Positions 9,730 to 30,040 of a stretch of DNA of 64,000 nt are shown here, one piece after another. The first letter of the stretch is position 1; each line of letters begins with the position of its first letter. Position numbers and translations under genes: made by a program. The stretch is from an uncultured Acidobacteriaceae bacterium (GTDB taxonomy: Bacteria; Acidobacteriota; Terriglobia; Terriglobales; Acidobacteriaceae): assembly GCA_963724855.1 (NCBI GenBank), contig CAVRWH010000008.1, forward strand, positions 1,360 through 65,359, in the 5' to 3' direction. The notes beneath the pieces are model-generated. The model was not told the DNA's origin. It searched no databases and saw nothing but the letters and a program-made list of their open reading frames with translations.

Positions 9730-9740
9730 GTTGGAGTCGA

Positions 9741-10697: not shown

Positions 10698-10950
10698 GAA
10701 CGGCTCCCGTTTGCTTTCTTGCTTTCGACGATCTACTTATCATTCGTATTGATTCGCCAGTTTGGATTTTGATACAGCCGGATGCCATGAAGTTTTCGCG
10801 TGAGTTACGCAACAGGGAATGTCCCCTAAGCGAACCAGGCACGAAAGGGCGCCATTCGGCGGGCAACTGTGCAATCGCCGGAACAAAAGCCGCCTGTCCT
10901 GCGTACACCTTACTAATCCAGCGTTAAGATGGGTACAGGAGGGGACTGCC

Positions 10951-14619: not shown

Positions 14620-15147
14620 CCAAAAGGCCTCGAGGAAATAGATGCCAGCAGGAGCGGGCGATCAGTACACGATTCTGCGACGTGAGTTGTCCCGACTCGG
14701 AGAGAAAGTTGCACCAGTGCCAGAACCGCTGATGCTGCTGAGAGCGCCATGCTGTGCGGTTGGTTTGCGGAACCAGCCAGGCGGAGGTCCAGACCATCGC
14801 CTGGCATCGCCAGAGCGTGGAGCGCAAACCGTCTGAAAAACTCATCGCGCCGCTCCTCACCCAACGCCAACGGACAGCGGATGCCCGTTATTTTATTCCA
14901 ATTTCTATGATTCTCAGACACTCGGCGGAGTGGCGAAGTTCCAAGGTCAGTCGGGTGCCGTGTCAGCTACAACATCCCTAATGGTTTTGAGTTATTGTTC
15001 GCTGGTTTTGAAACCTTTGTAATCGATAAACCGCAGCGCGCCGCGGGAAAGCTTGCGGGGTTTCGGAGACGGTAGGGGTGCCGTTGCGGCTGGGGAGCGT
15101 GCCCGTCAAGGTGATCGTTTCCTGCCGAGTTTTCGAAGACAAATATA

Positions 15148-15366: not shown

Positions 15367-18300
15367 ATGCATGCACCACTACGCCGGTTCGTGACCGGTG
15401 TTATCGCCTACTGTCTGCTGAGCGCCGCCGGATGGGCGGACACACCCCAAGTTCGGGCCGAAGCGGCCAAGCTCAACAACCTGGGCGTTGCCATGATGAA
15501 CCAGCAACTGATGGAAAAGGCGACCGCCAAGTTCGACGAAGCATACAAGCTCGATCCCTCTCTGGCTGTGGCTGCGTTAAATAAGGGAATCGCCCTGCTG
15601 AATCAGCAGCGATTGCCCGAGGCTGAAGAAGCATTGCGTCAGGCGGAAGCGAAAGACCCAGACAATCCGCGGGTCTGGTACAACCTCGGGCTGGTCAATC
15701 GCGGGTCGGGAAACACAGCCGAAGCGATCAGCGACTTCCAGAAGGTGCTGAAGATCGATCCCACCGATCCCGATGCCTACTATTTTCTCGGGACGTTTTA
15801 CAGCCAGCAGCAGGAATATGCCAAGGCCATCGATGCCTTCCAGCAGGCGCTGAAGATCAACCCGCTGCACGCCTCTGCGGAATTTGGATTGGGACGCGCG
15901 CTGCAGCGTTCGGGTCAGCCCGACGAAGCGCGGGTACACCTGAAGCGCTTTGAATACCTGACGCACAACAAAATTTCTTCGGCGATCACGCTGACCTACG
16001 GCGAGCAGGGGAAGTACTCGGTGGCTCAGGACGTGATCACCAACGACCCGAGCGTGGGGCCGATGATTCCGGTGACGTTCGTGGCGCAGGCGCTGGGGAA
16101 GGGCGGCCTACACCCCGGGCAGGCGGCTGACGGACTAATAAGAATGTCCGGCGGCGGCGTGTGCCTTCTGGATGTTGACGGAGATGGCAAACTGGACGTT
16201 ATTTCGATGAGCCCGCAAGCGCCGCCCGTTCAGGTGTTTCGCAACCTGGGTAACGGCGAATGGAAGTTGCTGGGCGCGCTGGATACGGGTTTTCCAGCTA
16301 CGGGCACCGGCGTTTCGTGTGCCGTGGGCGACTATGACAACGACGGCAAGAACGACATTGCGATTGCGCTGAGTGACCGCATGGTGTTGTTCCACAATGA
16401 CGGTGGCGGCAAGTTTACCGACGTGACCGCGAAAGTTGGCATCACTTCACTCAACCAGCCTGCGGGTATGACGTGGGTGGACTACGACCACGACGGAGAC
16501 CTTGATCTGATTGTTACCGGCCAGCAGATCGCTGGGTTGAAGGACTCGACGAACAACGTCGTGTGGCGCAACAACGGCAACGGTACGTTTACGAATTGGA
16601 CGAAGGAGACTGGACTTGCGGGGGACGGCGCGACGACGAGCGTTGTTTTGTCGGACATTAACAATGACCGCGCAGTAGATTTATTGGTGACCGGAGCCAA
16701 CGCCGCGCCCACGGTTTATTTGAACCAGCGCGAAGGGCCTTTCAAGGCGATGCCGCTTTACGACGCGGCCGGACTCGCACCCACAACCGGCGTTTACATT
16801 CTCGACTACAACAAAGACGGCTGGATGGACGTGGCCCTTACCCATGCAGGTGCGCCGGGAGTGAGCCTTTGGCGCAACGTTGATGGAACGAAGTTCGAGC
16901 GCGTGAAGCTGCCCATCACTGACGCGACAAAGGGCTGGGGTATCACTGCCCTCGACTTCGACAACGATGGCTGGATCGATATCGCCGCGGTGGTCGAGAC
17001 GGCAAACGGCGCCGAGGTTGCGCGCCTTCCGCAATAAAGCCGCTCTAGGGTTCGAAGATGTCAGTGCGACGCTCGGGCTTGAAGAAGCTGAAGCTGCACG
17101 ATCCGCGAGCGGTGTTTGCCGCCGATCTCGACAATGATCTTGCAGCGGACCTCCTGGTAACGCAACTGGGGGGCGACCCAGTCGTACTCCACAACCAGGG
17201 CGGCAACAAGAACCACGCGCTGCGCATCGACTTCAAGGGTTTGGCGGACAACAAGACTGGCTTGGGGACAAAGGTCGAGGTCTTCTCTAACGGCACATGG
17301 CAGAAGTTTGAGGTTGCGGGCGGCGCGGGTTACCTGAGCCAGGGGCCGCCGGAAGTGCTCGCAGGGCTGGGCCAAAACACTAACGCCGACATCGTGCGAA
17401 TGCTGTGGCCCACGGGCGTGCTGCAAGACGAAATTGACGTTGCGGTGAACAAGCCGGCCTCGTTCCTGGAGCTCGACCGGCGCGGCAGTTCTTGTCCGAC
17501 GCTCTTCGCTTGGAACGGCGAGAAGTACGAGTTCGTCACCGACGTGATCGGCGCAGCCGTGATTGGACATTGGATTTCTCCCACATCGACGAACACGCCA
17601 GATCCTGACGAGTGGGTGAAGATCGACGGTACCAAGCTTCGCGCCAAAGACGGCTACCTGAGCGTGCGCTTCGGCGAGCCGATGGAGGAAGTGAACTACA
17701 TCGATCAACTGCGCATGGTGGCGGTGGACCATCCGGCGGACCTCGATGTTTATCCCGACGAACGCTTCCTTGACGACCCGCCATTCGCCAGCGGCAAAAC
17801 GGTGGCAACCTCGCAGCCGCATCCTCCGGTGGGCGCGTGGGACGGCCAGGGCCATGACGTGCTGCAATTGCTGAGCGCGCGCGATCACCAGTATGTTCGC
17901 GATTTCACCAACCTGCCTTACGCGGGCTTTGCCAATACCCACTCGCTGACGCTCGACCTCGGCGGGTGGACACCGCAGCAGCCGCTGCGGCTGTTCCTGA
18001 GCGGCTTTATCGAATATTTCAGCGCAACCTCGATGTATGCCGCATGGCAGGCGGGCCTGAAGCCAATCTCGCCATTCATCGAAGCGCAAATGCCCGACGG
18101 CAGCTGGAAACGGGTGGTCGATGAGATGGGATTCCCGGCGGGACTGCCGCGCACCATCGCGGTTGATCTGACCGGCAAGTTGCCGGCGGGAGCGCAGAAG
18201 ATCCGCATCACCTCGAACCTGCAGATTTATTGGGACGAAGTGCTGGTCGACAACGGGCCTGCGCGCGAGAGGGACGTGCGCACCACTGAGTTACCACTGG

Positions 18301-18831
18301 CAGCGGCGACGCTGGGCTTCCGCGGCTATCCGCGGCAAGTGGACGGCGCCACGCCCGGCGACCTGACCTACCGCTACGAAGAAGCCAGCATGACGGGGCC
18401 TTTCTCACGCTTCCGCGGTAGCTATACCGAGTACGGTGACGTGACGCCGCTGCTTACGTCGATCGACAACCAGTTTGCGATCTTCGGTACGGGCGAGGAC
18501 ATCGACGCCGAGTTCGACACTGCAGCGCTGCCAGCGCTGCCCAAGGGATGGAAGCGCGACTATTTCTTCTACGCCAACGGCTTCGTCAAGGACATGGATT
18601 TCTACGAGGCGATTCCGTTCACGGTCGCTGAGATGCCGTTCCATGGCATGAGCACGTATCCCTATCCCGCGACGCAGCACTACCCCGACGACCCACACGC
18701 CAACGGCTATCGCTTCGAGTGGAACGACCGCTTCGTGTCAGGCGCGAGCAAGGCGCTGGGCTATCGCTTCGTGTACGAGCAAGCGGACGATCGATCCCGA
18801 GCCGCTGACCCCGCACAAGAATTCACACTGA
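15367..18831 (+). pseudogene. TPR + FG-GAP/VCBS + UnbV/ASPIC (CRTAC1-family) protein with a long C-terminal extension; 2-3 apparent frameshifts
   Basis: Signal peptide, then TPRs (residues about 30-190). DxDxDG loops: LLDVDGDGKLDVI, VGDYDNDGKNDIAI, WVDYDHDGDLDLIV, ILDYNKDGWMDVAL, ALDFDNDGWIDIAA, AADLDNDLAADLLV. UnbV-like module: NHALRIDFKGLADNKTGLGTKVEVFSNG..GAGYLSQG. The link between ORF 15367-17037 and ORF 17058-19352 runs through a third frame (LRAFRNKAALGFEDVSATLGL), with shifts near 17010-17020 and 17072-17082. After about 18790 the ORF becomes R/G/A-rich and overlaps the next gene, so the true stop is probably 18806-18831. Confidence 0.75.
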
Positions 18832-18864
18832 CGACGTGCGCTCTGGAGGCGCCACCGGACAAGA

Positions 18865-21675
18865 ATGAAGAAGTTAGCTTTACTGTCGATTGCTGCGCTG
18901 ACGATTTCTGCCATCTACTTGTATGCATGGCCGGCGCCGAATGTGTTTTACGCCGCGGTGGTGTTGGGCCATGTCGGGCTCGGCGTGTTGTTCTGCATCG
19001 GCGGCTTGCGCCTGCTCCCAACGGCGATGCGCCAGCCGGTGATCGTGAAGCTGGCGACGCTGGTGCTGATCGTTGGTGCGGCGCTTGGATTGGTGCTGAT
19101 CTACACCGGCGCGGCGCGTCCCTATACGAAACTGTTGCTGACTCACGGAGCGGTGTCGTTCCTGGCAGTGGCGTTGCTGGCAGGGTGGTGGTACAGCCGC
19201 CGCAAAGAGTCGGGTGGCAGTGGGTGGATCCCGCCACTGGGCGCGGTTGCCGTGGCTGTCGTAATTACGCTGGGCGCGCAATACGCCCGAACTTCGTGGA
19301 GCAAGCGTTACGTCATTCGCAATCCCGAGATAGCGCCGCTGTCGATGAATAGCGAGGGCGGCGGCTCGCACGGCCCGTTCTTCCCCAGCTCGTCGCAGGT
19401 TGCGGGTGACCGGAAGATTCCGTCGAAGTTCTTCATGGAGTCGGACGCCTGCCAGCGCTGCCACCAGGACATTTACAAAGAGTGGCAAAGTTCGGCCCAT
19501 CACTTCTCGTCGTTCAACAATCAGTGGTATCGCAAGAGCGTCGAGTACATGCAGCAGGTTAACGGCGTGCAGGCGTCGAAGTGGTGTGCGGGTTGTCACG
19601 ATCCGGCGCTGCTCTACAGCGGCAAGATGGACATCCCCATCCAACAGATTGTGCACACTCCCGAAGCGCAGGCTGGCATGGGTTGCATGATGTGCCACTC
19701 GATCGTGCGGGTGAAGAGCACGATGGGGCAAGGCGACTTCATGCTGGAGTACCCGGAGCTACACGAACTCGCCGCCACCAAGAACCCCGTGCTGCGCTGG
19801 ATCCACGATTTCAGCATCAAGCTCAACCCCGAGCCGCATCGCCGCGTCTTCCTCAAGCCCTTTATGCAGAGCCAGACGCCGGAATTCTGCTCGTCATGCC
19901 ACAAGGTGCATCTTGACGTGCCGGTGAACAACTACCGCTGGCTGCGCGGCTTCAACGAATACGACAACTGGCAGGCTAGTGGCGTGTCCGGATTCGGCGC
20001 GCGCTCGTTCTATTACCCTCCGAAACCGCAAGGCTGCCAGGACTGCCACATGCCCGCTACAAATTCCGATGACATGGGCAACATTGCGGGCAAGATCCAT
20101 TCGCACTCCTTCCCCGCGGCCAACACGGCTCTGCCCACGGCCAACCAGGACGCGCGCCAGTTGGAAATGACAGAGAACTTCCTGAAAAGCGGCACGCTCA
20201 GCATCGACATCTTTGCGCTGTCGAATGCGTCGGCCAAGATCGGTGTGTCGGGGGGCCCGCAAACCGATTTGCAGACGACGTTCGCCGTGGGCGAAGAGTC
20301 CGAGATGAAGACCACGGGCGAATCCGCCGGGGTCGTCGCGCCCGTGACCGCTCCGCTGGACAAAGTGCAGGGAACGGTGCGCCGCGGCGAGAGCGCACGC
20401 ATCGACGTGGTGGTGCGCACGCGCAAAGTCGGACACTTCTTCCCTGGCGGGACCGTCGATGCTCCCGAGACATGGGTCGAATTGAAAGCCGTGGACGACA
20501 AGGGCCAGGTGATTTTCTGGAGTGGCAAGGCAGGCGATGACGGCAAGGGGCCGGTTGATCCCGGCGCGCACTTCTACCGCTCGCTGCAGATCGACGAGCA
20601 CGGTAACCCCATCAACAAACGCAATGCGTGGGCCACGCGCGCCGTGGTGTACGTGCGGCTGATACCTCCGGGTGCGGCTGACACCATTCACTACCGGATG
20701 AACGTGCCGCAGAATGCAGGCAGCAAAATCACGCTCACCGCGAAGTTGTGCTATCGCAAGTTCTCCTGGTGGAATACGCACTTCGCTTATGCAGGAGTCT
20801 CGCAACAACCGCCGGCTGCGCCGCAGACCGCCAAGAGCTATGACGATCGGCAATTTACTTTCGACGGCGACCTCAGCCAGGTTTCGGGCAAGCTGCATGA
20901 GATTCCCGAACTGCCCATCGTTGTCATTGCCGAAGACACCATTGAACTGAAGGTGTTGCCGAAGGGCGCGCCAGCCGACGCCCCCAAAACGATTGTCGAG
21001 AAAGCCGACTGGCAGCGCTGGAACGACTACGGCATCGGATTGTTCCTGCAAGGCGATTTCAAGGGAGCTGCAGCGGCGTGGGAGAAGGTGACTGAAGCTG
21101 ATCCCAACAATCCCGATGGTTGGGTGAACCTGGGCCGCGTTGCCGTGCAAGAGGGCGACATGGAGCGGGCCCGCGTCGTTCTCAACAAGGCGCTGGCTAT
21201 CGATCCCAATCTCGCGCGTGCAAACTATTTTTATGCCCGCGTATTGCGTTCTGACGGCGATTACGACGGCGCGGCGGCGCGCTTGTTCAAGGTGGCCGAG
21301 CAATATCCCAAGGACCGCGTGGTCCGCAACGACCTGGGACGCACGTACTTTTTGGCGCGCAAATATCCTGAGGCGATCGAACAACTCAAACTGGCGATCG
21401 CCGTCGATCCCGAAGACCTGCAAGCCAACTACAACCTCATGCTCTGCTACAAGGGGATGGGCGATGCGACGAAGGCGGCGGAGTATGAAAAGCTCTACCT
21501 GCGCTTCAAGGCTGATGAGTCATCGCAGGTCATTACCGGGCCGTATCGACGGCTACATCCCGAGGACAACAACGAACGCCAACTGATTCACGAGCACGGC
21601 TCCGCACCGCTCAAGCCGGCCAAGGCGCCGGTGGGCATCGCGGAGAAACACGCCGTGACTGCAGGAGGCAAGTAA
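18865..21675 (+). CDS. membrane-anchored pentahaem c-type cytochrome fused to C-terminal TPR repeats
   Basis: Five N-terminal TM helices (residues about 4-140). Five CxxCH motifs: CQRCH 19450-19464, CAGCH 19585-19599, CMMCH 19684-19698, CSSCH 19888-19902, CQDCH 20045-20059. C-terminal TPRs (WQRWNDYGIGLFLQGDFKGAAAAWEKVTEADPNNPDGWVNLGRV...). GGAGG lies upstream of the ATG. Confidence 0.85.
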   Translation: MKKLALLSIAALTISAIYLYAWPAPNVFYAAVVLGHVGLGVLFCIGGLRLLPTAMRQPVIVKLATLVLIVGAALGLVLIYTGAARPYTKLLLTHGAVSFLAVALLAGWWYSRRKESGGSGWIPPLGAVAVAVVITLGAQYARTSWSKRYVIRNPEIAPLSMNSEGGGSHGPFFPSSSQVAGDRKIPSKFFMESDACQRCHQDIYKEWQSSAHHFSSFNNQWYRKSVEYMQQVNGVQASKWCAGCHDPALLYSGKMDIPIQQIVHTPEAQAGMGCMMCHSIVRVKSTMGQGDFMLEYPELHELAATKNPVLRWIHDFSIKLNPEPHRRVFLKPFMQSQTPEFCSSCHKVHLDVPVNNYRWLRGFNEYDNWQASGVSGFGARSFYYPPKPQGCQDCHMPATNSDDMGNIAGKIHSHSFPAANTALPTANQDARQLEMTENFLKSGTLSIDIFALSNASAKIGVSGGPQTDLQTTFAVGEESEMKTTGESAGVVAPVTAPLDKVQGTVRRGESARIDVVVRTRKVGHFFPGGTVDAPETWVELKAVDDKGQVIFWSGKAGDDGKGPVDPGAHFYRSLQIDEHGNPINKRNAWATRAVVYVRLIPPGAADTIHYRMNVPQNAGSKITLTAKLCYRKFSWWNTHFAYAGVSQQPPAAPQTAKSYDDRQFTFDGDLSQVSGKLHEIPELPIVVIAEDTIELKVLPKGAPADAPKTIVEKADWQRWNDYGIGLFLQGDFKGAAAAWEKVTEADPNNPDGWVNLGRVAVQEGDMERARVVLNKALAIDPNLARANYFYARVLRSDGDYDGAAARLFKVAEQYPKDRVVRNDLGRTYFLARKYPEAIEQLKLAIAVDPEDLQANYNLMLCYKGMGDATKAAEYEKLYLRFKADESSQVITGPYRRLHPEDNNERQLIHEHGSAPLKPAKAPVGIAEKHAVTAGGK

Positions 21676-21682
21676 ACAGGCC

Positions 21683-23407
21683 ATGAATCTCATACGAAAG
21701 TCATCATCTCTTTTTCTTATGTGCGCGGTGCTGGTCTCCGCCGCAGCGGCGCAGGTCACGTTCAAAGACATCACCAAACAGGCGGGCATCACCTTCGTCC
21801 ACAACAGTGGTGCGGTGGGAAAGAAGTGGCTGCCGGAGACCATGGGAATCGGTTGCGCCTTCATCGATTACGATAATGACGGCTACCCCGACATCCTTCT
21901 CGTCAACGGCAAAGACTGGAATGCGACCGGCAAGGGTTCGACGCTGAAGCTCTATCACAACAATCGCAACGGCACGTTCACTGACGTGACTGCGAAAGCC
22001 GGGCTGGCGATCTCCCTCTACGGGATGGGCGCGGCCGTGGCTGATTACGACAACGACGGCTATGACGACATCTATGTTTCTGCCCTGGGTCAGAGCCACC
22101 TGTTCCACAACAACGGCAACGGCACATTTACCGATGTCACCAAGTCCGCGGGCATGATGGGCCCCAACGAATTCAGCACCAGCGCGGCGTGGTTCGATTA
22201 CGATCGCGACGGCAAGCTTGACCTGATCGTCGTCAATTACGTGCAGTGGACCCCGCAGGGCGACATCTACTGCACACTCGATGGCACGCACAAGTCGTAC
22301 TGCACTCCTGAGTCGTACAAGGGAGCGTCGGTGCGTTTGTGGCACAACCTCGGCAACGGAAAGTTCGAAGACGCCACCGCGAAGGCTGGCCTCTTCGACA
22401 ACTCGTCAAAGTCGCTGGGCGTAGCCGTGCTCGATGTGAACAACGACGGCTGGCCTGATCTGGTGATCGCCAACGATACCCAGCCCAACAAGCTCTACGT
22501 GAACAATACCAAGGGAGGCTTCACCGAGTCGGCCGTCTCGGCGGGGATCGCCTTCAGCGAAGACGGAGTGGCGCGCGCCGGCATGGGCGTCGATGCGGCC
22601 GACTACGACCACACAGGGCGGCCGAGTATTGTCATCGGCAACTTTGCCAACCAGATGCTGGCGCTGTACCACAACGAAGGCAACGGTCTGTTCGTGGATG
22701 AAGCGCCACGCTCCGAGATCGGGCGCCGCAGCCTGCTGACGCTGGGCTTTGCCACTCTATTCTTTGACTACGATAACGATGGCTGGGTCGATATCTTCGT
22801 CGCCAACGGTCACATCGAGAATGAAATCGAGCGCATCCAGAAGCGTGTGCACTATGCAGAGTCGCCGCACCTGTTTCACAACTTGGGCAAGGGAAAGTTT
22901 GCCGACGCGACGCAGGCGGTTGGGCCGGAACTCGGTACGCCACGTGTCGGGCGAGGCGCCGCTTATGCCGACATCGACAACGATGGCGACCTCGATCTGT
23001 TGATGACCACCAACGCCGGTCCTGCTGTGCTGTTCCGCAATGACGGCGGCAACAGCAACAAGAGCCTCCGCATTAAGCTGGTGGGCACGCGGTCGAACCG
23101 TGACGGAATCGGAACGATGGCCGTCGTCAAGGCCAATGGCGACCGCCAGACGCAAATGCTGCGCAGTGGATCAGGCTACCTGTCGTCGAGCGAACTCGTG
23201 CTGACCTTTGGGTTGGGCAAGGCCGCGCAGGCCGACGAGATCGAGTTGCGTTGGCCCAGCGGACAGGTGGACAAGCTCTATAAAGTCGCTGCGGGGCAAA
23301 CTGTCACCGTCAAGGAAGGTTCAGGCATCGTGCAGCAGAGGGCATTTGGGGCAGCGCCGCCTCCAGCGGCGACGGCTGTGGCCACGCCGCACAAGACTGC
23401 GAAATGA
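21683..23407 (+). CDS. CRTAC1-family protein (FG-GAP/VCBS repeats + UnbV/ASPIC)
   Basis: Signal peptide. Seven DxDxDG loops (FIDYDNDGYPDILL, VADYDNDGYDDIYV, WFDYDRDGKLDLIV, VLDVNNDGWPDLVI, FFDYDNDGWVDIFV, YADIDNDGDLDLLM...). UnbV-like module SLRIKLVGTRSNRDGIGTMAVV..GSGYLSSSE..IELRWPSG. Confidence 0.85.
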   Translation: MNLIRKSSSLFLMCAVLVSAAAAQVTFKDITKQAGITFVHNSGAVGKKWLPETMGIGCAFIDYDNDGYPDILLVNGKDWNATGKGSTLKLYHNNRNGTFTDVTAKAGLAISLYGMGAAVADYDNDGYDDIYVSALGQSHLFHNNGNGTFTDVTKSAGMMGPNEFSTSAAWFDYDRDGKLDLIVVNYVQWTPQGDIYCTLDGTHKSYCTPESYKGASVRLWHNLGNGKFEDATAKAGLFDNSSKSLGVAVLDVNNDGWPDLVIANDTQPNKLYVNNTKGGFTESAVSAGIAFSEDGVARAGMGVDAADYDHTGRPSIVIGNFANQMLALYHNEGNGLFVDEAPRSEIGRRSLLTLGFATLFFDYDNDGWVDIFVANGHIENEIERIQKRVHYAESPHLFHNLGKGKFADATQAVGPELGTPRVGRGAAYADIDNDGDLDLLMTTNAGPAVLFRNDGGNSNKSLRIKLVGTRSNRDGIGTMAVVKANGDRQTQMLRSGSGYLSSSELVLTFGLGKAAQADEIELRWPSGQVDKLYKVAAGQTVTVKEGSGIVQQRAFGAAPPPAATAVATPHKTAK

Positions 23408-24823
23408 CGATAAGTCCCGTCACGCAACAGTCGGCGGTAGAACTACTGGCGCTTCTGCGAACGCGTAAGATTTCGGCACTGGAGCTGGCCGACGAATACA
23501 TTCGCCAAATCGAGCGACTGAATCCGACAATTAACGCGCTGGTGGATTTCGACGCCGAACGTGTCAAGCAGCAGGCGCGCGCGATAGATCAATCGTCCAC
23601 TCCGCACGGCTTATTGGCCGGACTTCCAGTGACAGTGAAGTCGTCGATCTCAACCGCAGGCTATCGCTGCGAGATCGGCAGCGTAGTCAATCGCGGAAGC
23701 ATTCCGGCAAGAGATGCAACGGTCGTAGCGCGGCTGCGAGCTGCGGGCGCGGTGATTCTCGGCACGACCAACTGCCCTGAATATCTGATGGCTTATGTCA
23801 CCGACAATCTGTTGCACGGGCGAACAAACAATCCTTGGAACCTCGACTACACGCCGGGTGGCTCGAGCGGCGGCGAATCGGCTGCGATTGCAGCCGGAAT
23901 GTCCGCGGGAGGACTGGGCAGCGACAGCGGCGGTTCGGTGCGCGTACCGGCGCACTTCACCGGCATCTGTTCACTGAAACCGACACCGGGGCGTATCCCC
24001 GGCGTTGGCCACCTGCCCCCGTGCATCGGCCCATTTTCGTTCCTCGGAGCAATCGGCCCCATGGCGCGTACCATCGGCGACGTGACGCTGTTGTTTCGAG
24101 TACTGTCAGGACAGGATCCAATCGATCCCGCAAGTCCGCCGCTTGCGTTGCGTACTCCGAGCCTCGAAGAGGCGAGACGGCTGCCGATTGGCTACTTCGA
24201 AGACGACGGCTTGGTGCCGGTGACTCGGGAGACGCGGATAGCTATTCAAGCGGCCTCCGGCGCGCTTCGCGAAGCCGGTTTTGATGTTCGTCCGTTTCGT
24301 CCCAACGCACTCGAGCCCGCCCGCAAGCTGTGGGAGCTGTTCTTCCTGCGCTGCGGCGCGATGTTTGAGGAGCCACTGGTTCGGGGCCACGAAGACCAGC
24401 TCAGCCCCGTTTTTCGCGACTTTCTGACGCGGGCGCACGCCGCCGGGCCGCTTACCGCTGAAGAAGTGCTGACGGCGTGGGCCGAAGCAGACATTATTCG
24501 CAGCAAGCTGTTGGCCCAGATGCAGGAGTTCCCGCTGCTGCTGTGCCCGGTCGCTTCGGTGCCGGCGTTTCGCCACGACGAGCGAAGCTGGACGATCGAC
24601 GGCGAGCCGGTCGAATACCTCGACGCCATGCGCTATTCGCAGTGGTTCAATTTGCTGGCCGCGCCCGCAGCGGTCGTGCCGGTTGGCCGCTCGCCCGAGG
24701 GCACTGCCCATCGGCGTGCAGATCGTGGGCCGCCCATTCGAAGACGAAACCGTGCTAAAGGTCGCGTCGGTGATCGATGAAGCGTTTGGCTATCAACCGC
24801 CGCCAATCTCCAATCCTGACTAA
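23404..24823 (+). pseudogene. amidase-signature family enzyme (GatA-like); one apparent frameshift near 24703
   Basis: Signature GGSSGGESAAIAAGMSAGGLGSDSGGSVRVPA and an upstream catalytic Lys region (PVTVKSSI). The start overlaps the upstream stop (ATGA 23404-23407). After the shift, frame +1 gives the family-typical end LPIGVQIVGRPFEDETVLKVASVIDEAF..., with stop TAA at 24821-24823. Confidence 0.8.
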
Positions 24824-24841: not shown

Positions 24842-26629
24842 TGGACTCTCGACTCATGCACGACTTCCGTACGCCTGCGCACGGGCCTGGCCCTTTTTCT
24901 GACCGTGCTGACGACTTATAACGCCTTCTCCCAAGCTCACTCCGTTGCCCCACCTCCGCCACCGGGGGCCAAGAATGTGGTGTGCAAAGACCGGGCCATT
25001 CCGCAACTCGTCGACGTCACCGAAAAGACTGGCATCAAGTTCACGCACGTTGCCGATCCCGACAAGAAGTACATCGTCGAGTCGATGGGCGGCGGCGTGC
25101 TCGTTCTCGACTACGACCGTGACGGCTGGCCTGACATCTACTTCACCAACGCGCCAACAGTCGCCATGGCGCTCAAGAACCAGCCCGCACGCGGCGCGCT
25201 CTATCACAACAATCACGACGGCACCTTTACCGATGTGACCGACAAAGCTGGCGTCGCCACGCCCTGCTTTGCCATGGGCGGTGCGGTAGGCGACTACAAC
25301 AACGATGGCTGGCCCGACATGGTCATCACCTGTCTCGGCCACACGATTCTCTACCGCAACAACGGCGACGGCACGTTTACCGACGTCACCAAGCAGGCGG
25401 GCATCGACGATCCCCGCTGGTCTACCGGCGCTTCTTTCGGCGATTACGACAACGACGGCTTCGTGGACCTGATGGTCACCCGCTACGTGGACTTCCAGTT
25501 GACCGACCTGCCGCAGTTCGGCAGCAGCCCTACCTGTAAGTATCGCGGCATCGACGTGCAGTGCGGACCGCGCGGGTTGCGCGGTGCTGGCGACTCGCTC
25601 TACCACAACAATGGCGATGGCACATTCACCGACGTCAGCAAGCAGGCGGGTGTAGACGATCCTCGCGGCTACTACGGACTGGGCGTCTTGTGGGCTGACT
25701 TCGACAACAAAGGGCGTCCCGACATCTACGTCGCCGACGACTCCACGCCGAAGTACCTCTACCGCAATGACGGCAACGGCAAGTTCACGGATATCGGACT
25801 TGAGTCAGGCACCGCAGTGAGCGCCGACGGCTCCGAGCAGGGCTCGATGGGCATTGCCCTCGGAGACTACATCCACAACGGGCTGCCGTCGCTGTACGTG
25901 ACCAACTTCGCCGACGAGTACAACATTCTTTACCTCAACCAGGGTGGCTACGATTTCCGCGATGTCTCGTACGACTCGGGCGTCGCGGTGGCCGCGCTGC
26001 CGTGGGTGAAGTGGGGCACCGCCTTCTTCGATCTCGATAATGACGGCTGGCTCGACCTGATCTCGGTCAACGGGCAGGTGTATCCGCAGGTGGATCAGTT
26101 GCCCTCTGGAGCGCGCTATCGTCAGCCCAAGAACCTCTTCATGAACCAGCGCAACGGCAAGTTCTGCGATGCGCAGACGCAGGCCGGTCCGGCGCTGCAG
26201 ATTCCCCGCGTCAGCCGCGGGCTGGCCATCGCCGACCTCGACAACGACGGCAACGTGGACATCGTCATCGCCGACCTCGACGGCGAGCCCATGATTCTGC
26301 ATAACCAGGGACTGCCCGGAAAGCACTGGGTGAGCTTCGAGTTGGCGGGAACCAAGAGCAATCGCCTGGCGATCGGAGCAAAACTCAAGCTGGTTGCCGG
26401 AGGCATGACGCAAACAGCCCAGATATTCAGCGGCGGCAGCTATCTTTCCAACCACGACTTCCGCGTGCACTTCGGCCTAAACGACGCCACCAAGATTGAT
26501 TCGCTGGAAATCAAGTGGCCGTCCGGCAAGGTCGAAACGATTACCAACCTGAAGCCCGACCAGTTTTATTCGGTATTGGAAGGCAGCGGCATCGTCGATC
26601 GCGACAAGATCGTGCCGAAGAAGAAGTAA
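24842..26629 (+). CDS. CRTAC1-family protein (FG-GAP/VCBS repeats + UnbV/ASPIC)
   Basis: DxDxDG loops (VLDYDRDGWPDIYF, VGDYNNDGWPDMVI, FGDYDNDGFVDLMV, FFDLDNDGWLDLIS, IADLDNDGNVDIVI). UnbV-like module HWVSFELAGTKSNRLAIGAKLKL..SGGSYLSNHD..LEIKWPSG. The supplied ORF starts at GTG 24905. In-frame TTG 24842 would add the signal-peptide n-region (RLRTGLALFLTVLTTYNAFSQA). Confidence 0.85.
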   Translation, partial: WTLDSCTTSVRLRTGLALFLTVLTTYNAFSQAHSVAPPPPPGAKNVVCKDRAIPQLVDVTEKTGIKFTHVADPDKKYIVESMGGGVLVLDYDRDGWPDIYFTNAPTVAMALKNQPARGALYHNNHDGTFTDVTDKAGVATPCFAMGGAVGDYNNDGWPDMVITCLGHTILYRNNGDGTFTDVTKQAGIDDPRWSTGASFGDYDNDGFVDLMVTRYVDFQLTDLPQFGSSPTCKYRGIDVQCGPRGLRGAGDSLYHNNGDGTFTDVSKQAGVDDPRGYYGLGVLWADFDNKGRPDIYVADDSTPKYLYRNDGNGKFTDIGLESGTAVSADGSEQGSMGIALGDYIHNGLPSLYVTNFADEYNILYLNQGGYDFRDVSYDSGVAVAALPWVKWGTAFFDLDNDGWLDLISVNGQVYPQVDQLPSGARYRQPKNLFMNQRNGKFCDAQTQAGPALQIPRVSRGLAIADLDNDGNVDIVIADLDGEPMILHNQGLPGKHWVSFELAGTKSNRLAIGAKLKLVAGGMTQTAQIFSGGSYLSNHDFRVHFGLNDATKIDSLEIKWPSGKVETITNLKPDQFYSVLEGSGIVDRDKIVPKKK

Positions 26630-28325
26630 CGCCTATTTCTTTCCCACGGCCAGCGGTGGTAACGGCCGTCGATTCTTTGATTCCCGCGCCCTCTACCACC
26701 GTATGAATCGCGTCGGCGGCAACGTTTTTCAATTCTTCCGTGTTGCCGTTGGGCCAGCGGATCACAACTTTCTCGATCTTTGCGGTATCGGGCCCCAGAC
26801 CGAAGTGCAGCCGCAGATCGCTCTGCGAGACATAACTGTTGCCACCCTTGACCTCGCGCAGCTGGGTCACTCCGCCTGCCGTAATCGTTACGCGCGCTCC
26901 GATGGCTGCCTTGTTGCTCTTCGTTCCCACCAGCTTGAACATCACACGATGGTTCGCGTTCTTCGAGTCGTTCAGCAGGATGGACGGCGGTTCGCCCACG
27001 TTGAACACCACGGCATCGATGTTGCCGTCATTGTTCAAGTCTCCATAGGCCACGCCGCGGTGCGATTGCATCGACTCGTCATTTACGCCAGATGCGTCGC
27101 TCACATTGTCGAATGCCTTCTTGCCCGTGTTGCGGAAAACCATCATCGGCTCGCGAAAGCCCGGTTCGCCCGGCAGCGTGTCGATAGCGGTGTAGATGTG
27201 TCCGGCGGCAACCATGATGTCAGGCCAGCCGTCGTTGTCGAAGTCAGCGAAGCCCGTGCCCCACTTCACCCAGCGAAACGTCGCCTGTCCCAGCTTGGCC
27301 GCCCAGGTAATGTCGTTAAACTCGTCACCCTGGTTGTGAAAAAGGTTGTCAGGCTGATACGCGAACGTTGCGACAGTGATGTCGAGTTTGCCGTCGCGGT
27401 CGAAGTCTCCAGCGTCCACGCCCATTGAGCCCATGGCCTTGCCCTCGGCACTTACCGCCGCGCCCGATAGCAGCGCCAGGTCCTCAAAGGTTCCGTCGTG
27501 CTTGTTGCGATACAGGTAGCTCGGTTCAGTATCGTTGCCGACAAACAGGTCCGGCCAGCCGTCGTTGTCGAAGTCGCCCCAGACCACGCCCAGCCCCAGC
27601 CGGCCCTCAGGGTCGCCCACTCCGGCTTTCTTCGACACCTCTTCAAACGTGCCGTCGCCGCGGTTGTGAAACAGGAAATCGGTCTCGCCTGACATGCCCC
27701 ACGGCGCTTCGACAACCAGCCCTTTGTAGTCGGTGTGAATCGGCGGCAGGTTCTTCGCGTCGGTGTGAATGTATCGCGAGACGAACAGATCGACGTTGCC
27801 GTCGCGGTCGTAGTCACCCCAGGCCGCGCCGGTGCTAAAGCCGCCACCAACCACGCCCGCCTTTTCCGTCACGTCTTCAAACTTACAGTTGCCGAGATTG
27901 TGATACAGCGCGTTGCCGCCGTACCCGGTGACATACAAATCGGGCAAGCCATCATTGTCGTAGTCAGCTACGGCCAGCCCCATGCCCCAGCCTTTGCGGG
28001 TAAGTCCGGCCGACTTGGTGATGTCGGCGAACTTGAATCCTTCGCCCTGGTGGTAGAGCGTTACCATCAGGTCACCGCCTGCCTTGTAGCCTTCGATGGT
28101 AGAGGGCGTGACCGCGGCAATATCGAGCTTGCCGTCGTTGTCGCAATCAAACAGCGCCACGCCGCCAGCCATCTGCTGCACGATGTACTTCATCTCCGCT
28201 GGAGGTTTGGTGCCGGGCACACGCAGACCGGCCTCTTTGTTGGCGTTATGAAAATGGATGGGAGCGGCCTGGCCAAACGCCGACGACAATGACAAGCTCA
28301 ACAGCGCGAGAGAAGCCAGACGCAT
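26541..28325 (-). CDS. CRTAC1-family protein (FG-GAP/VCBS repeats + UnbV/ASPIC); 3' end doubtful
   Basis: Signal peptide MRLASLALLSLSLSSAFGQA. DxDxDG loops (LFDCDNDGKLDIAA, VADYDNDGLPDLYV, WGDYDRDGNVDLFV, WGDFDNDGWPDLFV, FADFDNDGWPDIMV, YGDLNNDGNIDAVV). UnbV-like module HRVMFKLVGTKSNKAAIGARVTI..GGNSYVSQSD..VVIRWPNG. The last 30 or so codons overlap the convergent gene by 89 bp. One base fewer in the A run at about 26637-26642 would end the protein at ..GRGKK* (stop complement of 26633-26635). Confidence 0.85.
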   Translation of the reverse strand: MRLASLALLSLSLSSAFGQAAPIHFHNANKEAGLRVPGTKPPAEMKYIVQQMAGGVALFDCDNDGKLDIAAVTPSTIEGYKAGGDLMVTLYHQGEGFKFADITKSAGLTRKGWGMGLAVADYDNDGLPDLYVTGYGGNALYHNLGNCKFEDVTEKAGVVGGGFSTGAAWGDYDRDGNVDLFVSRYIHTDAKNLPPIHTDYKGLVVEAPWGMSGETDFLFHNRGDGTFEEVSKKAGVGDPEGRLGLGVVWGDFDNDGWPDLFVGNDTEPSYLYRNKHDGTFEDLALLSGAAVSAEGKAMGSMGVDAGDFDRDGKLDITVATFAYQPDNLFHNQGDEFNDITWAAKLGQATFRWVKWGTGFADFDNDGWPDIMVAAGHIYTAIDTLPGEPGFREPMMVFRNTGKKAFDNVSDASGVNDESMQSHRGVAYGDLNNDGNIDAVVFNVGEPPSILLNDSKNANHRVMFKLVGTKSNKAAIGARVTITAGGVTQLREVKGGNSYVSQSDLRLHFGLGPDTAKIEKVVIRWPNGNTEELKNVAADAIHTVVEGAGIKESTAVTTAGRGKEIGVTSSSARSCRDRRCRCLPIPNKTGRASGW

Positions 28326-28456: not shown

Positions 28457-30040
28457 ATGTTTCCTTTCGAATTTGCGCGCTTCCGTCCATTACGCTCGCA
28501 TCCATCTCGCAATTGGATGCTTTGCCGGCTGGCTCTCGTCCTGCTGGCGATATGGACCCCTGGGATCGCCGCACAGGATTACAACCTTACCGCGGTGGAG
28601 GCCCTCATTCGCCAGGCGAAACTCGATGACGCCGACCGGCAATTGCAGGCGATCCTGCGGACCCAGCCAAACAATTCTCGCGCAATCGCACTGCTAGGCA
28701 CAGTGCGCCGCCAGCAGGGAAACTGGCCCGAAGCCGAATCGCTGTATCGCCGCGCCGTTGCCGCCAACCCAAAGTCTCTCGATGCGTGTCAAGACCTCGC
28801 TGCACTGCTGCGCGATGAGGCCCGCTGGCCGGAAACAGTTGAGCAGTACGAGTCCTGTCGCAGATTGGCGCCCCGGAATTTCGCTATCGCGGCCGATTTG
28901 GCTGCCGCATACGAGAAAAACGGCGACCCCGCAAAGTCGCTGGCCACGGTGGCGGCGATTCCGTCCGCTGCGCGCCCGACGAGCGTGCTGCCTGTGATTG
29001 CTGCCGACTTCGTGGCCACCAACCAGCCGCAGAAGGCCGATGCTGCCATCGCCGAAGTGCTGCGCCATGCCGCTGCTGATCCTGCCATCGTTCCAGCCCT
29101 GGCCAACAGCCTTCTCGATCACGGTATGGTTGACGATGCCGCACATTTGTTACGCGTCGCGCAACCGCTTCAGACATCGACTCCCGTGTTTCTGGCGACA
29201 CTGGCCAAAGTGCAGGCCGCCAGCGGCAATACCCAGGAAGCGCGCCAGACTTTCGACAAAGCAATTCGTCTCGATCCCAAGTCGCAGGACGTGCTGGCCG
29301 CCGGGGTCGCCCTTGCCATTCGCTGGGCCCAATGGGACAAGGCGCTGGAGTTTCTCGATTCGGCGCTCGCGGCCGGCCCGCCACGTACCGACCTGCTGCA
29401 GAGCGTGGTCTTCGTTGAATTGCGCAAGAATGACCTCCAAGCCGCCCACGGCATTGCGGAACGGTGGTACACGCTGCGCCCGGAAGAGACCGCCAGCGTA
29501 CTGGCGTTTGCCATTGTGCTGGTCGAGGGCAATCACTGGGGCGAAGCCAAGCCCCTGCTGGAGAAGGTTCTCGCCAAGTCTCCCAACGACAAGGGCGCAG
29601 CACTGGCGATGGGCGTGGTGCAATACAACGCCGGCAACCTTCCCGCGGCCACTAAGTATTTGACCTCCGCTCTCGGCGGCGGCCCTGACGACGCCAACGC
29701 TCATTACTTTCTGGGTCTCATCGCCAAGCAGGAGGGCAACTTTTCCTCCGCCATCACTCAGATGGAGCAATCGGTCGCCATCCGCTCGAATAACCCAAAG
29801 GCATTAGGTCAGCTCGGGCAGCTTTATTTGCAGCAGAATGATCTGCCCAAGGCCCGAGCGTCGTTGGAAACGGCTATCGCGCAGTCCCCGGAGGAGCCGC
29901 AAAACCACTACGAACTGGCACGCGTCTACAACAAACTCGGCCTGAAGGACGAAGCCGAAGCGCAACTCAAGCTCTACCAGAAGCTGCGCCCTCAGCGTCC
30001 ACAGTCGCCCGAGGGAGAAGCTCCTCCGCGGTCCCAGTAA
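28457..30040 (+). CDS. tetratricopeptide-repeat protein (exported)
   Basis: Consecutive TPR units across the whole length (e.g. ALLGTVRRQQGNWPEAESLYRRAVAANPKS, HYFLGLIAKQEGNFSSAITQMEQSVAIRSNNPKA, HYELARVYNKLGLKDEAEAQLKLY). The hydrophobic N-terminus MLCRLALVLLAIWTPGIAA suggests an alternative ATG at 28517. Confidence 0.85.
   Translation: MFPFEFARFRPLRSHPSRNWMLCRLALVLLAIWTPGIAAQDYNLTAVEALIRQAKLDDADRQLQAILRTQPNNSRAIALLGTVRRQQGNWPEAESLYRRAVAANPKSLDACQDLAALLRDEARWPETVEQYESCRRLAPRNFAIAADLAAAYEKNGDPAKSLATVAAIPSAARPTSVLPVIAADFVATNQPQKADAAIAEVLRHAAADPAIVPALANSLLDHGMVDDAAHLLRVAQPLQTSTPVFLATLAKVQAASGNTQEARQTFDKAIRLDPKSQDVLAAGVALAIRWAQWDKALEFLDSALAAGPPRTDLLQSVVFVELRKNDLQAAHGIAERWYTLRPEETASVLAFAIVLVEGNHWGEAKPLLEKVLAKSPNDKGAALAMGVVQYNAGNLPAATKYLTSALGGGPDDANAHYFLGLIAKQEGNFSSAITQMEQSVAIRSNNPKALGQLGQLYLQQNDLPKARASLETAIAQSPEEPQNHYELARVYNKLGLKDEAEAQLKLYQKLRPQRPQSPEGEAPPRSQ

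What the first reader, a model, noticed from the sequence alone, without database searches (positions are those of the whole stretch)
18865..21675. Unusual domain fusion: 5-TM anchor, five c-type haem sites, a large non-haem domain and TPRs
Seen:
- There are five N-terminal hydrophobic helices, two of which carry His (GHVGLG, LTHGAV).
- The positively charged N-terminus (MKK) predicts N-in topology, so the rest of the protein would be periplasmic.
- All five CxxCH motifs lie within about 200 residues (19450-20059).
- A region of roughly 330 residues without haem motifs follows (contains VGHFFPGGT), then canonical TPRs.

Established: multihaem cytochromes are normally soluble, lipoprotein or single-TM proteins. 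TPRs mediate protein-protein contacts.

Inference: the TPR tail may dock the neighbouring CRTAC1/TPR proteins onto an electron conduit. The polytopic anchor could couple that conduit to the quinone pool.
Basis: partly seen in the sequence, partly recalled or inferred. Interest (0 to 1): 0.6.

Follow-up and report, generated by a model that had tools for sequence, protein, structure and literature searches.

The report
Membrane-anchored pentahaem cytochrome with TPR tail
This is an intact, strongly conserved soil-acidobacterial gene for a five-haem cytochrome bolted to a five-helix membrane anchor and a protein-docking (TPR) tail; it always sits beside calcium-propeller (CRTAC1-like) genes, nobody has described it, and it probably moves electrons between the membrane and those partners.

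Summary
ORF 18865-21675 encodes an intact 936-aa protein with five TM helices, five CxxCH sites, a beta-sandwich domain and about five TPRs.

It is not a fusion artefact.
- Full-length relatives of 934-965 aa, at 65-90% identity, cover 100% of it. One is in Koribacter versatilis Ellin345.
- 70 distant cluster representatives (33-55% identity) keep the whole architecture.
- In those 70, the two TM histidines are 97% and 99% conserved and all five CxxCH are 100% conserved.

The haem and beta-sandwich core belongs to the pentahaem "PHC" fold. The only PDB relative is Thermochromatium tepidum cytochrome c552 (5ZE8), with profile E 8.6e-13 and as Foldseek top hit. The 5-TM anchor matches no known family.

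The gene lies next to a CRTAC1-like FG-GAP/ASPIC gene in 52 of 52 fully flanked loci. A giant TPR-propeller gene is present in 39 of 52 and an amidase in 36 of 52, and gene order varies between clades.

My best reading is inference: a membrane-to-periplasm, probably quinol-linked, electron module that serves the propeller partners.

The overlap with ORF 17058-19352 comes from frameshifts in the upstream gene, so the public gene call (776 aa) loses the anchor.

This scan has already found the same module on other genomes. I found no description of it in the literature. It is a new variant of a known kind, of moderate interest.

The parts
18865..21675 (+). Complete gene: 5-TM anchor, pentahaem domain, Ig-like beta-sandwich, TPR and conserved C-tail (936 aa)
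   Evidence: Open frame. Colinear in a single frame with a 940-aa ortholog at 89% identity. Full-length homologs. AF2 mean pLDDT 90, pTM 0.88.
18868..19311 (+). Five-helix membrane domain (helices 2-21, 27-54, 59-81, 85-113, 122-149). No known family.
   Evidence: Hydropathy. AF2 helices. No significant Pfam, PDB or hhalign match.
18970..18972 (+). H36 codon (TM2), tenth residue of the helix counted from its periplasmic end
   Evidence: Invariant in A1, A4 and A5. Conserved in 97% of 70 distant representatives.
19144..19146 (+). H94 codon (TM4), tenth residue of the helix counted from its periplasmic end
   Evidence: Invariant in A1, A4 and A5. Conserved in 99% of 70 distant representatives.
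19312..19422 (+). Conserved periplasmic linker (R142...W145...NP...SM..EG.G..G.FFPSS) joining the anchor to the haem domain
   Evidence: Many invariant positions. pLDDT 86-94.
19423..20184 (+). Helical pentahaem c domain. CxxCH at nt 19450-19464, 19585-19599, 19684-19698, 19888-19902 and 20035-20049.
   Evidence: Motifs, 100% conserved. Pfam Cytochrome_C554 scores 34.9 bits against a cut-off of 20.8. 5ZE8 profile match E 8.6e-13.
20197..20958 (+). Ig-like beta-sandwich domain with the invariant GHFFPGGT loop (nt 20431-20454; H524)
   Evidence: AF2 strands 445-698. HMMER aligns this loop to 'PHAMPTG' of 5ZE8. Foldseek alignment to 5ZE8 covers 559 columns.
21001..21507 (+). TPR array (ten helices, about five repeats)
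   Evidence: Pfam TPR families. PDB TPR hits. AF2 helices 713-881.
21517..21627 (+). Conserved C-terminal tail (ITGPYRRLHPEDNNERQLIHEH), confidently modelled. The last 15 residues are disordered.
   Evidence: Invariant or near-invariant columns 892-913. An HxH or HxY motif is kept in about two thirds of distant representatives. pLDDT 80-91.
15367..18831 (+). Upstream partner: giant TPR + FG-GAP + UnbV/ASPIC + C-extension protein. Here it is broken by at least 3 frame changes.
   Evidence: Pfam. The 1156-aa ortholog maps to frames 1, 3, 1 and 2.
21683..23407 (+). Downstream partner: secreted CRTAC1-like FG-GAP/ASPIC propeller. It has a signal peptide and starts 7 nt after the cytochrome stop.
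   Evidence: Pfam. Sequence. Human CRTAC1 9etn, E 1.6e-25. Adjacent in 52 of 52 loci.
23404..24820 (+). Amidase-signature enzyme with no signal peptide. ATGA overlap with the propeller gene; frameshift near 24700.
   Evidence: Pfam Amidase E 9e-89. Sequence. Frame change. In the module in 36 of 52 loci.

Best explanation
**What is shown**
- The gene encodes a cytoplasmic-membrane protein whose large C-terminal part faces the periplasm.
- Its core is a PHC-type pentahaem cytochrome c, that is a helical five-haem cap plus an Ig-like beta-sandwich, as in T. tepidum c552.
- A family-specific five-helix membrane domain precedes the core.
- A TPR platform and a conserved tail follow it.

**What is inferred**
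- The membrane domain holds a redox site near the periplasmic face, either one bis-His haem b or a quinol site. H36 (TM2) and H94 (TM4) would build it, surrounded by small conserved residues.
- Electrons pass between that site (the quinone pool) and the five c-haems.
- The TPR platform holds the secreted CRTAC1-like FG-GAP/ASPIC propeller proteins encoded alongside. The haem chain would then deliver electrons to, or take them from, a reaction carried out with them.

**What remains unknown**
- The direction of electron flow and the substrate.
- The recurrent cytoplasmic C-N hydrolase hints at an amide-containing or nitrogenous compound.
For: **Architecture is conserved**
- The ORF is intact and full-length homologs cover it.
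- 70 representatives at 33-55% identity keep the anchor, five haems and the TPR.
- At least 592 species genomes carry a relative.
- 65 of 201 sampled Acidobacteriota genomes have a match.

**PHC core**
- 5ZE8 is the only PDB sequence relative. The profile match is E 8.6e-13, colinear over haems 1-3, haem 5 and the Ig loop.
- 5ZE8 is the Foldseek top hit: E 7.9e-10, TM-score 0.58 normalised to the target.

**Possible redox site in the anchor**
- H36 is 97% and H94 99% conserved.
- Each His is the tenth residue of a helix that starts on the periplasmic side.
- Conserved stripes run Y29-V33-H36-G40 and G71-G75-L78-G82.

**Rigid assembly**
- pTM is 0.88 and the anchor-haem linker is conserved and confidently modelled.

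**Partnership**
- A CRTAC1-like gene is adjacent on the same strand in 52 of 52 fully flanked loci. The giant is present in 39 of 52 and the amidase in 36 of 52. The gene set is kept although the order differs between clades.
- Spacers of 7 nt and -4 nt suggest translational coupling.

**Sequence constraint**
- Conservation outside the haem motifs is unusually high, which suggests constraints beyond simple electron hopping.
Against: - No cofactor or quinone binding has been shown.
- The anchor shows no homology to cytochrome b561/Ni_hydr_CYTB (hhalign probability 1.1%).
- Foldseek gives only insignificant NarI hits for the anchor (E 0.32).
- Weak Pfam hits for the anchor are no more frequent than hits to unrelated membrane families.
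- A short subfamily of about 760 aa, with only one N-terminal hydrophobic segment, keeps the TPR and the CRTAC1 neighbours. Quinol coupling through this anchor is therefore not essential to the module.
- CRTAC1-like proteins have no known redox cofactor.
- The tools returned no model coordinates. His-His and haem distances, and where the tail docks, could not be measured.
Confidence: 0.5

Rival explanations
1. The cytochrome is itself the enzyme: a membrane-tethered PHC-type terminal reductase or oxidase. It would catalyse at one non-bis-His haem, as MccSep/ExtKL does at haem 2. The propellers and the TPR would only bind or present the substrate.
For: - Exactly four non-motif His are invariant for five haems (H212, H325, H414, H524). 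A fifth candidate, H569, is only 86% conserved.
- In MccSep, four haems are bis-His and haem 2 is catalytic, with a residue from the Ig-like domain in its pocket.
- Sequence conservation is enzyme-like.
Against: - There is no Cys or Sec equivalent. The only non-haem cysteines are C44, C629 and C861, and C629 is not invariant.
- MccSep is not alignable by profile.
- Haem ligation could not be read from the model.
- This reading overlaps with the best explanation rather than excluding it.
Confidence: 0.25
2. The five helices are only an anchor or an assembly domain. The conserved histidines serve folding or oligomerisation, and electrons come from soluble periplasmic carriers.
For: - The anchor has no detectable relation to known redox membrane proteins.
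- The short subfamily works without it.
Against: - Two His are 97-99% conserved at matching depth, with glycine stripes, while the rest of the TM sequence drifts to about 30% identity. That pattern is atypical for a passive anchor.
- One TM helix would be enough for tethering.
Confidence: 0.17
3. It is the inner-membrane entry point of an extracellular electron-transfer route to minerals or humics.
For: - Membrane-bound multihaem quinol oxidases such as CbcL and ImcH do this in Geobacter (my own knowledge).
- PHC relatives occur in porin-cytochrome clusters: ExtKL (PMC11976967) and PtdA (bioRxiv 10.1101/2023.11.21.568154).
Against: - No porin or outer-membrane cytochrome gene was seen in the module in any locus inspected.
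- The constant partners are propellers, not cytochromes.
Confidence: 0.05
4. The domain combination is an assembly or gene-calling artefact of this window.
For: - The window does carry indel-type frame breaks in neighbouring genes.
- An ORF from the upstream gene overlaps the first 163 codons.
Against: - The cytochrome frame is unbroken and colinear with a 940-aa ortholog.
- The same architecture is found in hundreds of independent genomes, including the finished Koribacter genome.
Confidence: 0.01

Closest known systems
Low-potential pentahaem cytochrome c552 of Thermochromatium tepidum (PDB 5ZE8); the PHC family as named in PMC11976967
   Same: Both have five CxxCH in a helical cap followed by an Ig-like beta-sandwich. 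Sequence matches are colinear at haems 1-3, at haem 5 (CxxCHMP) and at the Ig-domain loop (GHxFPxG against PHAMPTG). 5ZE8 is the best and only significant non-TPR structural match.
   Different: c552 is a soluble protein of about 435 aa, with no polytopic anchor, no TPR and no CRTAC1 partners. Identity is about 16%. Its own function is unassigned (PMC11976967).
MccSep / ExtKL (Geobacter sulfurreducens GSU2936), pentahaem selenoprotein polysulfide reductase (bioRxiv 10.1101/2025.11.18.688581; PDB 9wt8)
   Same: It belongs to the same PHC fold class: five haems plus an Ig-like stem. Four haems are bis-His and one is special, which matches the four invariant distal-His candidates here. There is a weak phmmer hit at the first haem motif (E 0.062).
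   Different: No haem-ligating Cys and no Sec/Cys in the Ig loop is present here. MccSep is a soluble tetramer found in Desulfobacterota and Nitrospirota. The family profile does not retrieve it.
Fused or associated membrane quinol dehydrogenases of multihaem systems: CbcL (dihaem b + nine-haem c), ImcH, and NapC/NrfH/CymA
   Same: The proposed job is the same, linking the quinone pool to a periplasmic c-haem chain. CbcL sets a precedent for a polytopic domain fused to multihaem c (my own knowledge).
   Different: There is no homology. NapC/NirT Pfam scores 19.4 bits against a cut-off of 24.1, over 17 residues only. Ni_hydr_CYTB gives hhalign probability 1.1%. The anchor here has only one His pair.
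Human CRTAC1 (PDB 9etn), for the partner genes
   Same: The adjacent gene products share the FG-GAP propeller plus the ASPIC/UnbV domain (E 1.6e-25).
   Different: The bacterial partners are encoded with a cytochrome, TPR proteins and an amidase. No function is known for either side.

Membership tests
PHC-type pentahaem cytochromes (c552 / ExtKL / PtdA kind) | Five c-type haem motifs in one compact helical domain | tested here: met
   CxxCH at 196, 241, 274, 342 and 391, 100% conserved. Helical region 187-440.
PHC-type pentahaem cytochromes (c552 / ExtKL / PtdA kind) | C-terminal Ig-like beta-sandwich directly after the haem domain | tested here: met
   Strands 445-698 in the AF2 model. The Foldseek alignment to 5ZE8 spans 559 columns.
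PHC-type pentahaem cytochromes (c552 / ExtKL / PtdA kind) | Detectable sequence and structure relation to a solved member | tested here: met
   5ZE8: phmmer E 1.7e-3, profile E 8.6e-13, Foldseek E 7.9e-10 with TM-score 0.58 normalised to the target.
MccSep subfamily (polysulfide reductase) | Conserved Sec/Cys in the Ig-domain loop and a Cys distal ligand on haem 2 | tested here: not met
   The only non-haem Cys are C44, C629 and C861, and C629 is replaced by R, Y or L in some close homologs. The conserved loop residue is His524.
NapC/NirT/NrfH quinol dehydrogenases | Single N-terminal TM helix plus a tetrahaem domain matching PF03264 | tested here: not met
   PF03264 scores 19.4 bits, below the cut-off of 24.1, over 17 residues. 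The protein has five TM helices and five haems.
Cytochrome c554 (Nitrosomonas) / PF13435 | Match to the Pfam model above its gathering score | tested here: met
   PF13435 scores 34.9 bits against 20.8, over residues 195-279. PDB 1bvb reaches only E 0.014 with the profile. This is a shared multihaem motif, not orthology to tetrahaem c554.
Membrane b-type cytochromes (Ni_hydr_CYTB / NarI kind) | Sequence or fold homology of the TM bundle | tested here: not met
   hhalign probability 1.1% against a Ni_hydr_CYTB alignment. Pfam hits have E >= 0.043 in 11 of 53 members, no better than unrelated families. NarI by Foldseek gives E 0.32 and TM-score 0.33-0.39.
Membrane b-type cytochromes (Ni_hydr_CYTB / NarI kind) | His pair on two helices at equal membrane depth that ligates haem b | tested here: inconclusive
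   H36 and H94 are each the tenth residue of TM2 and TM4 and are 97-99% conserved. No coordinates or cofactor data were available.
TPR proteins | Tandem 34-residue helix-turn-helix repeats matching the Pfam TPR models | tested here: met
   TPR_19, TPR_11, TPR_2 and others score above their cut-offs. MamA and CTPR structures match at rmsd 1.5-3 A.

The most novel reading that the evidence does not exclude
The family is a previously unrecognised respiratory-type enzyme complex of soil Acidobacteria. It would have a new class of mono-haem-b or quinol-binding five-helix anchor fused to a catalytic PHC pentahaem. Its TPR arm would recruit calcium-propeller (CRTAC1-like) subunits. Together they would oxidise or reduce an extracytoplasmic, amide-bearing or nitrogenous substrate, and a dedicated cytoplasmic C-N hydrolase would finish the product. 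This would give bacterial CRTAC1 homologues their first biochemical role.
Probability: 0.15. Interest if true: 0.8.

Novelty: new variant of a known kind. Interest (0 to 1): 0.55.

Why it matters
- About a third of sampled Acidobacteriota genomes carry this module. They are among the most abundant and least understood soil bacteria. Databases label the protein only 'tetratricopeptide repeat protein' or 'pilus assembly protein PilF/TadD'.
- The family is a very well conserved redox protein with a new kind of membrane anchor.
- It gives the first functional context, electron transfer, for bacterial CRTAC1/ASPIC-UnbV propeller proteins, which have no known function.
- Cultured carriers exist, for example Koribacter versatilis Ellin345, so the hypotheses can be tested directly.
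- In practice, gene calls in indel-prone long-read MAGs truncate or fragment this gene. This window's own public call is 776 aa and lacks the anchor.

Tried and rejected
1. **Homology of the TM anchor to known families.**
   - Pfam at E <= 10 on 8 diverse and 53 aligned anchors gave only sub-threshold hits. Examples are Ni_hydr_CYTB, one DUF4405 hit and DUF2231. They were no more frequent than hits to unrelated membrane families.
   - hhalign against a Ni_hydr_CYTB alignment built from relatives gave probability 1.1%.
   - Foldseek of an anchor-only model gave no hit below E 0.3.
2. **Search for stand-alone anchor proteins**. The hits on long contigs turned out to be pieces of frameshift-fragmented genes in long-read MAGs, where the neighbouring genes are split as well. 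Rejected as evidence for a separate subunit.
3. **Ig-like domain alone against PDB sequences.** Nothing was found. The idea that H524 takes the place of Sec325 of MccSep therefore stays untested.
4. **NCBIfam.** Only generic TPR models and sub-threshold multihaem models matched.
6. **Literature.** Four full-text searches found no description of this architecture or of a cytochrome-CRTAC1 module. The c552 structure paper (PubMed 29691716) is not held.
7. **Model coordinates.** The tools do not return them, so no distances or haem-ligand geometry could be measured.
Full report

Bases 18865-21675 on the + strand are one open frame of 936 codons. Hydropathy finds five hydrophobic segments, at 4-22, 27-49, 59-80, 90-109 and 120-139. 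It also finds five CxxCH motifs, starting at residues 196, 241, 274, 342 and 391. Pfam finds Cytochrome_C554 above its cut-off over 195-279. It finds many TPR families over 711-850, and nothing for residues 1-190 or 400-700.

One complication is that ORF 17058-19352, in another frame, overlaps the first 163 codons. I mapped the 1156-aa upstream protein of a close relative (L001) onto the window.
- That gene is spread over frames 1, 3, 1 and 2.
- It has a 1-nt insertion near 18779 and an 8-nt deletion near 18828.
- Its natural end is the TGA at 18829-18831.

The overlap is therefore a read-through of a frameshifted gene, not a competing gene. A GGAGG lies 14 nt before the ATG at 18865. The collection's own gene call for this window is 776 aa (P0029). 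It starts at M161 and so loses the anchor.

**2. Is it a fusion artefact?**

No.
- More than 8000 database proteins match. The best 120 are mostly 934-965 aa, 65-90% identical, and cover 97-100% of the query.
- They include the protein from the finished genome of Candidatus Koribacter versatilis Ellin345 (942 aa, 68% identity).
- An exhaustive search with residues 1-710 found 3345 cluster representatives at E <= 1e-3, of which 805 are at E <= 1e-30.
- Seventy of the 150 best are full length (at least 800 aa) with several hydrophobic segments before the first haem.

In an alignment of those 70 (33-55% identity) the conservation is as follows.
- All ten haem cysteines and all five proximal histidines: 100%.
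- H36: 97%. H94: 99%.
- Exactly four further histidines are invariant: H212, H325, H414 and H524.
- H569: 86%.

The TPR region and a C-terminal HxH or HxY motif persist as well.

At least 592 GTDB species genomes encode a relative, mostly Terriglobia. In an even sample of Acidobacteriota genomes at least 85% complete, 65 of 201 genomes (54 of 137 genera) have a match at E <= 1e-30. More distant members come from candidate division KSB1, Thermoanaerobaculia and Polarisedimenticolia. Every source that names one calls it merely a TPR or pilus-assembly protein. The window's own genome has a single copy.

**3. What are the parts?**

AlphaFold2, run with a 118-sequence alignment, gives mean pLDDT 90 and pTM 0.88 for the whole chain.
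- Five long helices at 2-149.
- A well-ordered linker.
- A helical haem domain at 187-440.
- A beta-sandwich at 445-698.
- Ten TPR helices at 713-881.
- A tail at 885-921, still modelled at pLDDT 80-91.
- Only the last 15 residues are disordered.

*The haem and beta-sandwich core.* With the TPR part left out (residues 1-710), the best PDB sequence match is 5ZE8, the pentahaem low-potential cytochrome c552 of Thermochromatium tepidum (E 1.7e-3). A 12-sequence family profile of residues 165-700 raises the match to E 8.6e-13. The matches are colinear at haems 1-3, at haem 5 (CxxCHMP) and at the Ig-domain loop, GHxFPxG against PHAMPTG. Foldseek of the full model puts 5ZE8 first (E 7.9e-10, 559 columns, TM-score 0.58 normalised to the target). 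Everything else listed among the 50 best is a TPR protein.

The 'large non-haem domain' is therefore the Ig-like domain typical of what PMC11976967 calls the PHC family. That family includes c552, Geobacter ExtKL and Gsu2801, and the cable-bacteria PHCs. [quoted passage not shown]

ExtKL has since been characterised as MccSep, a polysulfide reductase. In MccSep, haems 1, 3, 4 and 5 are bis-His. Haem 2 is ligated by a Cys and sits next to a selenocysteine that reaches in from the Ig-like domain.

The protein here has neither residue, so it is not a MccSep. It does have four invariant distal-His candidates for five haems, and one of them (H524) lies in the Ig loop. Both facts are compatible with one haem having a special environment. 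I could not test this, because the tools return no coordinates.

*The anchor.* It is a family-specific domain. I tried the following.
- Relaxed Pfam scans.
- A profile-profile comparison with a cytochrome b561/Ni_hydr_CYTB alignment built from relatives (probability 1.1%).
- Foldseek of an anchor-only model with pLDDT 88 (best hit NarI, E 0.32, TM-score 0.33-0.39).

None gave a credible relative. What the sequence itself shows is this.
- TM2 and TM4 both enter the membrane from the periplasmic side. H36 and H94 are each the tenth residue of their helix, so they lie at the same depth, about a third of the way in.
- Around them run conserved one-face stripes, Y29-V33-H36-G40 and G71-G75-L78-G82. 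The rest of the anchor drifts to about 30% identity.

That is the pattern expected for a buried cofactor or quinone site. It remains an inference.

*Topology.* The positive-inside count is only about 8 against 6. The periplasmic location rests mainly on established knowledge that c-type haem is attached outside the cytoplasm, together with the odd number of helices.

**4. Genomic context**

In the close relative and in Koribacter the order is as follows.
- Giant TPR + FG-GAP + ASPIC protein (1127-1156 aa).
- Cytochrome.
- 573-aa FG-GAP/ASPIC protein.
- Amidase.

The window matches this order, with a 7-nt spacer and then an ATGA overlap. The small propeller protein has a signal peptide. Its only PDB relatives are human CRTAC1 (E 1.6e-25) and, far weaker, integrin alpha-6 (E 4.9e-5). 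The amidase has no signal peptide and is presumably cytoplasmic.

Across the 52 of 80 fetched loci that have full flanks:
- A CRTAC1-like gene lies next to the cytochrome on the same strand in 52 of 52.
- The giant is present in 39 of 52.
- The amidase is present in 36 of 52.

In most Terriglobales the order is amidase-cytochrome-propeller-giant. The gene set therefore survives a rearrangement, which argues for functional linkage rather than inertia.

A second, shorter subfamily also exists (about 760 aa, one N-terminal hydrophobic segment, same haem core and TPR). Pfam confirms FG-GAP/ASPIC genes immediately upstream of it in three of the four loci I fetched; in the fourth the gene upstream is an alpha-amylase. 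In one locus a CN_hydrolase gene sits where the amidase usually is. The polytopic anchor is thus an optional module on a conserved cytochrome-TPR/propeller partnership.

**5. Mechanism**

*Shown*
- A conserved, membrane-embedded PHC-type pentahaem cytochrome with a TPR arm.
- Obligate synteny with secreted CRTAC1-like propellers.

*Inferred (confidence about 0.5)*
- The H36/H94 site is a haem b or quinol site that connects the quinone pool with the c-haem chain.
- The TPR arm holds the propeller proteins so that electrons reach, or leave, a reaction done with them.

*Rivals*
- The cytochrome is itself the catalyst, at a non-bis-His haem (0.25; this is compatible with much of the above).
- The anchor is passive (0.17).
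- It is an entry point for extracellular electron transfer (0.05; no porin or outer-membrane cytochrome was seen in the module).
- It is an artefact (0.01, refuted).

**6. Comparison and novelty**

The core is a member of a known fold family (PHC). The anchor, the TPR fusion and the CRTAC1/amidase module are not described in any paper my four searches reached.

The protein fails the tests for NapC/NrfH, for MccSep and for homology to b-type cytochromes. It works most like fused quinol-dehydrogenase/multihaem proteins such as CbcL, without being related to them.

Earlier entries of this scan had already reported the same module in other genomes, with the same closest known structure. I reached 5ZE8 independently before reading them. 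My checks here confirm their claims about the closest known structure and the synteny.

- The family-wide conservation figures for H36 and H94.
- The negative homology tests on the anchor.
- The anchor-less subfamily.
- The recurrence of a C-N hydrolase despite gene-order shuffling.
- The explanation of the ORF overlap.

I could not compare these points with the earlier reports in detail, so I cannot say they are new to the scan.

Verdict: a real, conserved feature that is a new variant of a known kind, with interest about 0.55.

Noticed in passing
window 14624-14637, 17019-17076, 18779-18831 and 24695-24702: Compared with a relative at about 90% identity (L001), four genes' worth of sequence shows frame breaks. 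These are the MacB_PCD-like gene (1 break), the giant TPR/FG-GAP/ASPIC gene (at least 3, including an 8-nt deletion) and the amidase (1). Other genes, including the cytochrome, are colinear. The genome has 9 contigs, so these look like indel errors of a long-read assembly rather than targeted pseudogenisation.
   Followed up: partly
window 19345-21675 (public gene call P0029, 776 aa): The collection's gene call for this window starts at M161 and omits the whole membrane anchor. The likely cause is that the frameshifted upstream ORF runs into the true start.
   Followed up: yes
L012-L084 (for example L017, L033) compared with the window and L001/L003: The same four genes occur in two orders. 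Most Terriglobales have amidase-cytochrome-propeller-giant. The window's clade and Koribacter have giant-cytochrome-propeller-amidase.
   Followed up: yes
L119:5755-6750 (+), next to L119:6851-9136: Beside a short-form cytochrome-TPR gene, the slot usually held by the amidase-signature enzyme is occupied by a CN_hydrolase (nitrilase-superfamily) gene. This may be a non-homologous replacement that points to C-N bond hydrolysis as part of the pathway. It is a single case.
   Followed up: partly
L118:7219-9510, L119:6851-9136, L120:6558-8858, L121:6711-9002(-): A paralogous short subfamily of about 760 aa has the same pentahaem core and TPR but only one N-terminal hydrophobic segment. Pfam confirms CRTAC1-like genes immediately upstream in three of the four loci; in L120 the gene upstream is an alpha-amylase. 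Some genomes carry both long and short forms.
   Followed up: partly
L116 and L117 (ENA ERZ25039489 and ERZ25039537 contigs): In other long-read MAGs the cytochrome gene is chopped into 3-4 gene calls, and the neighbouring amidase and MFS genes are chopped too. The resulting pieces sit in protein databases as 'stand-alone' anchor or 'partial multiheme cytochrome' entries.
   Followed up: yes
window 24863-26629 (+), 26637-28325 (-) and 28517-30040 (+): Two further CRTAC1-like paralogs and a 507-aa protein without a Pfam match follow the operon. They are conserved in the same arrangement in L001.
   Followed up: no
G000:C5:424190-424723 (-), outside the window: The same genome encodes a Ni_hydr_CYTB (cytochrome b561-type) domain inside an open frame of about 680 aa. 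The arrangement is conserved in several congeners and may be another fused membrane redox protein.
   Followed up: no
window 9088-10721 (-): An Oxidored_molyb plus Ferric_reduct pair (MsrPQ-like) lies a few kb upstream of the module, as in L001.
   Followed up: no
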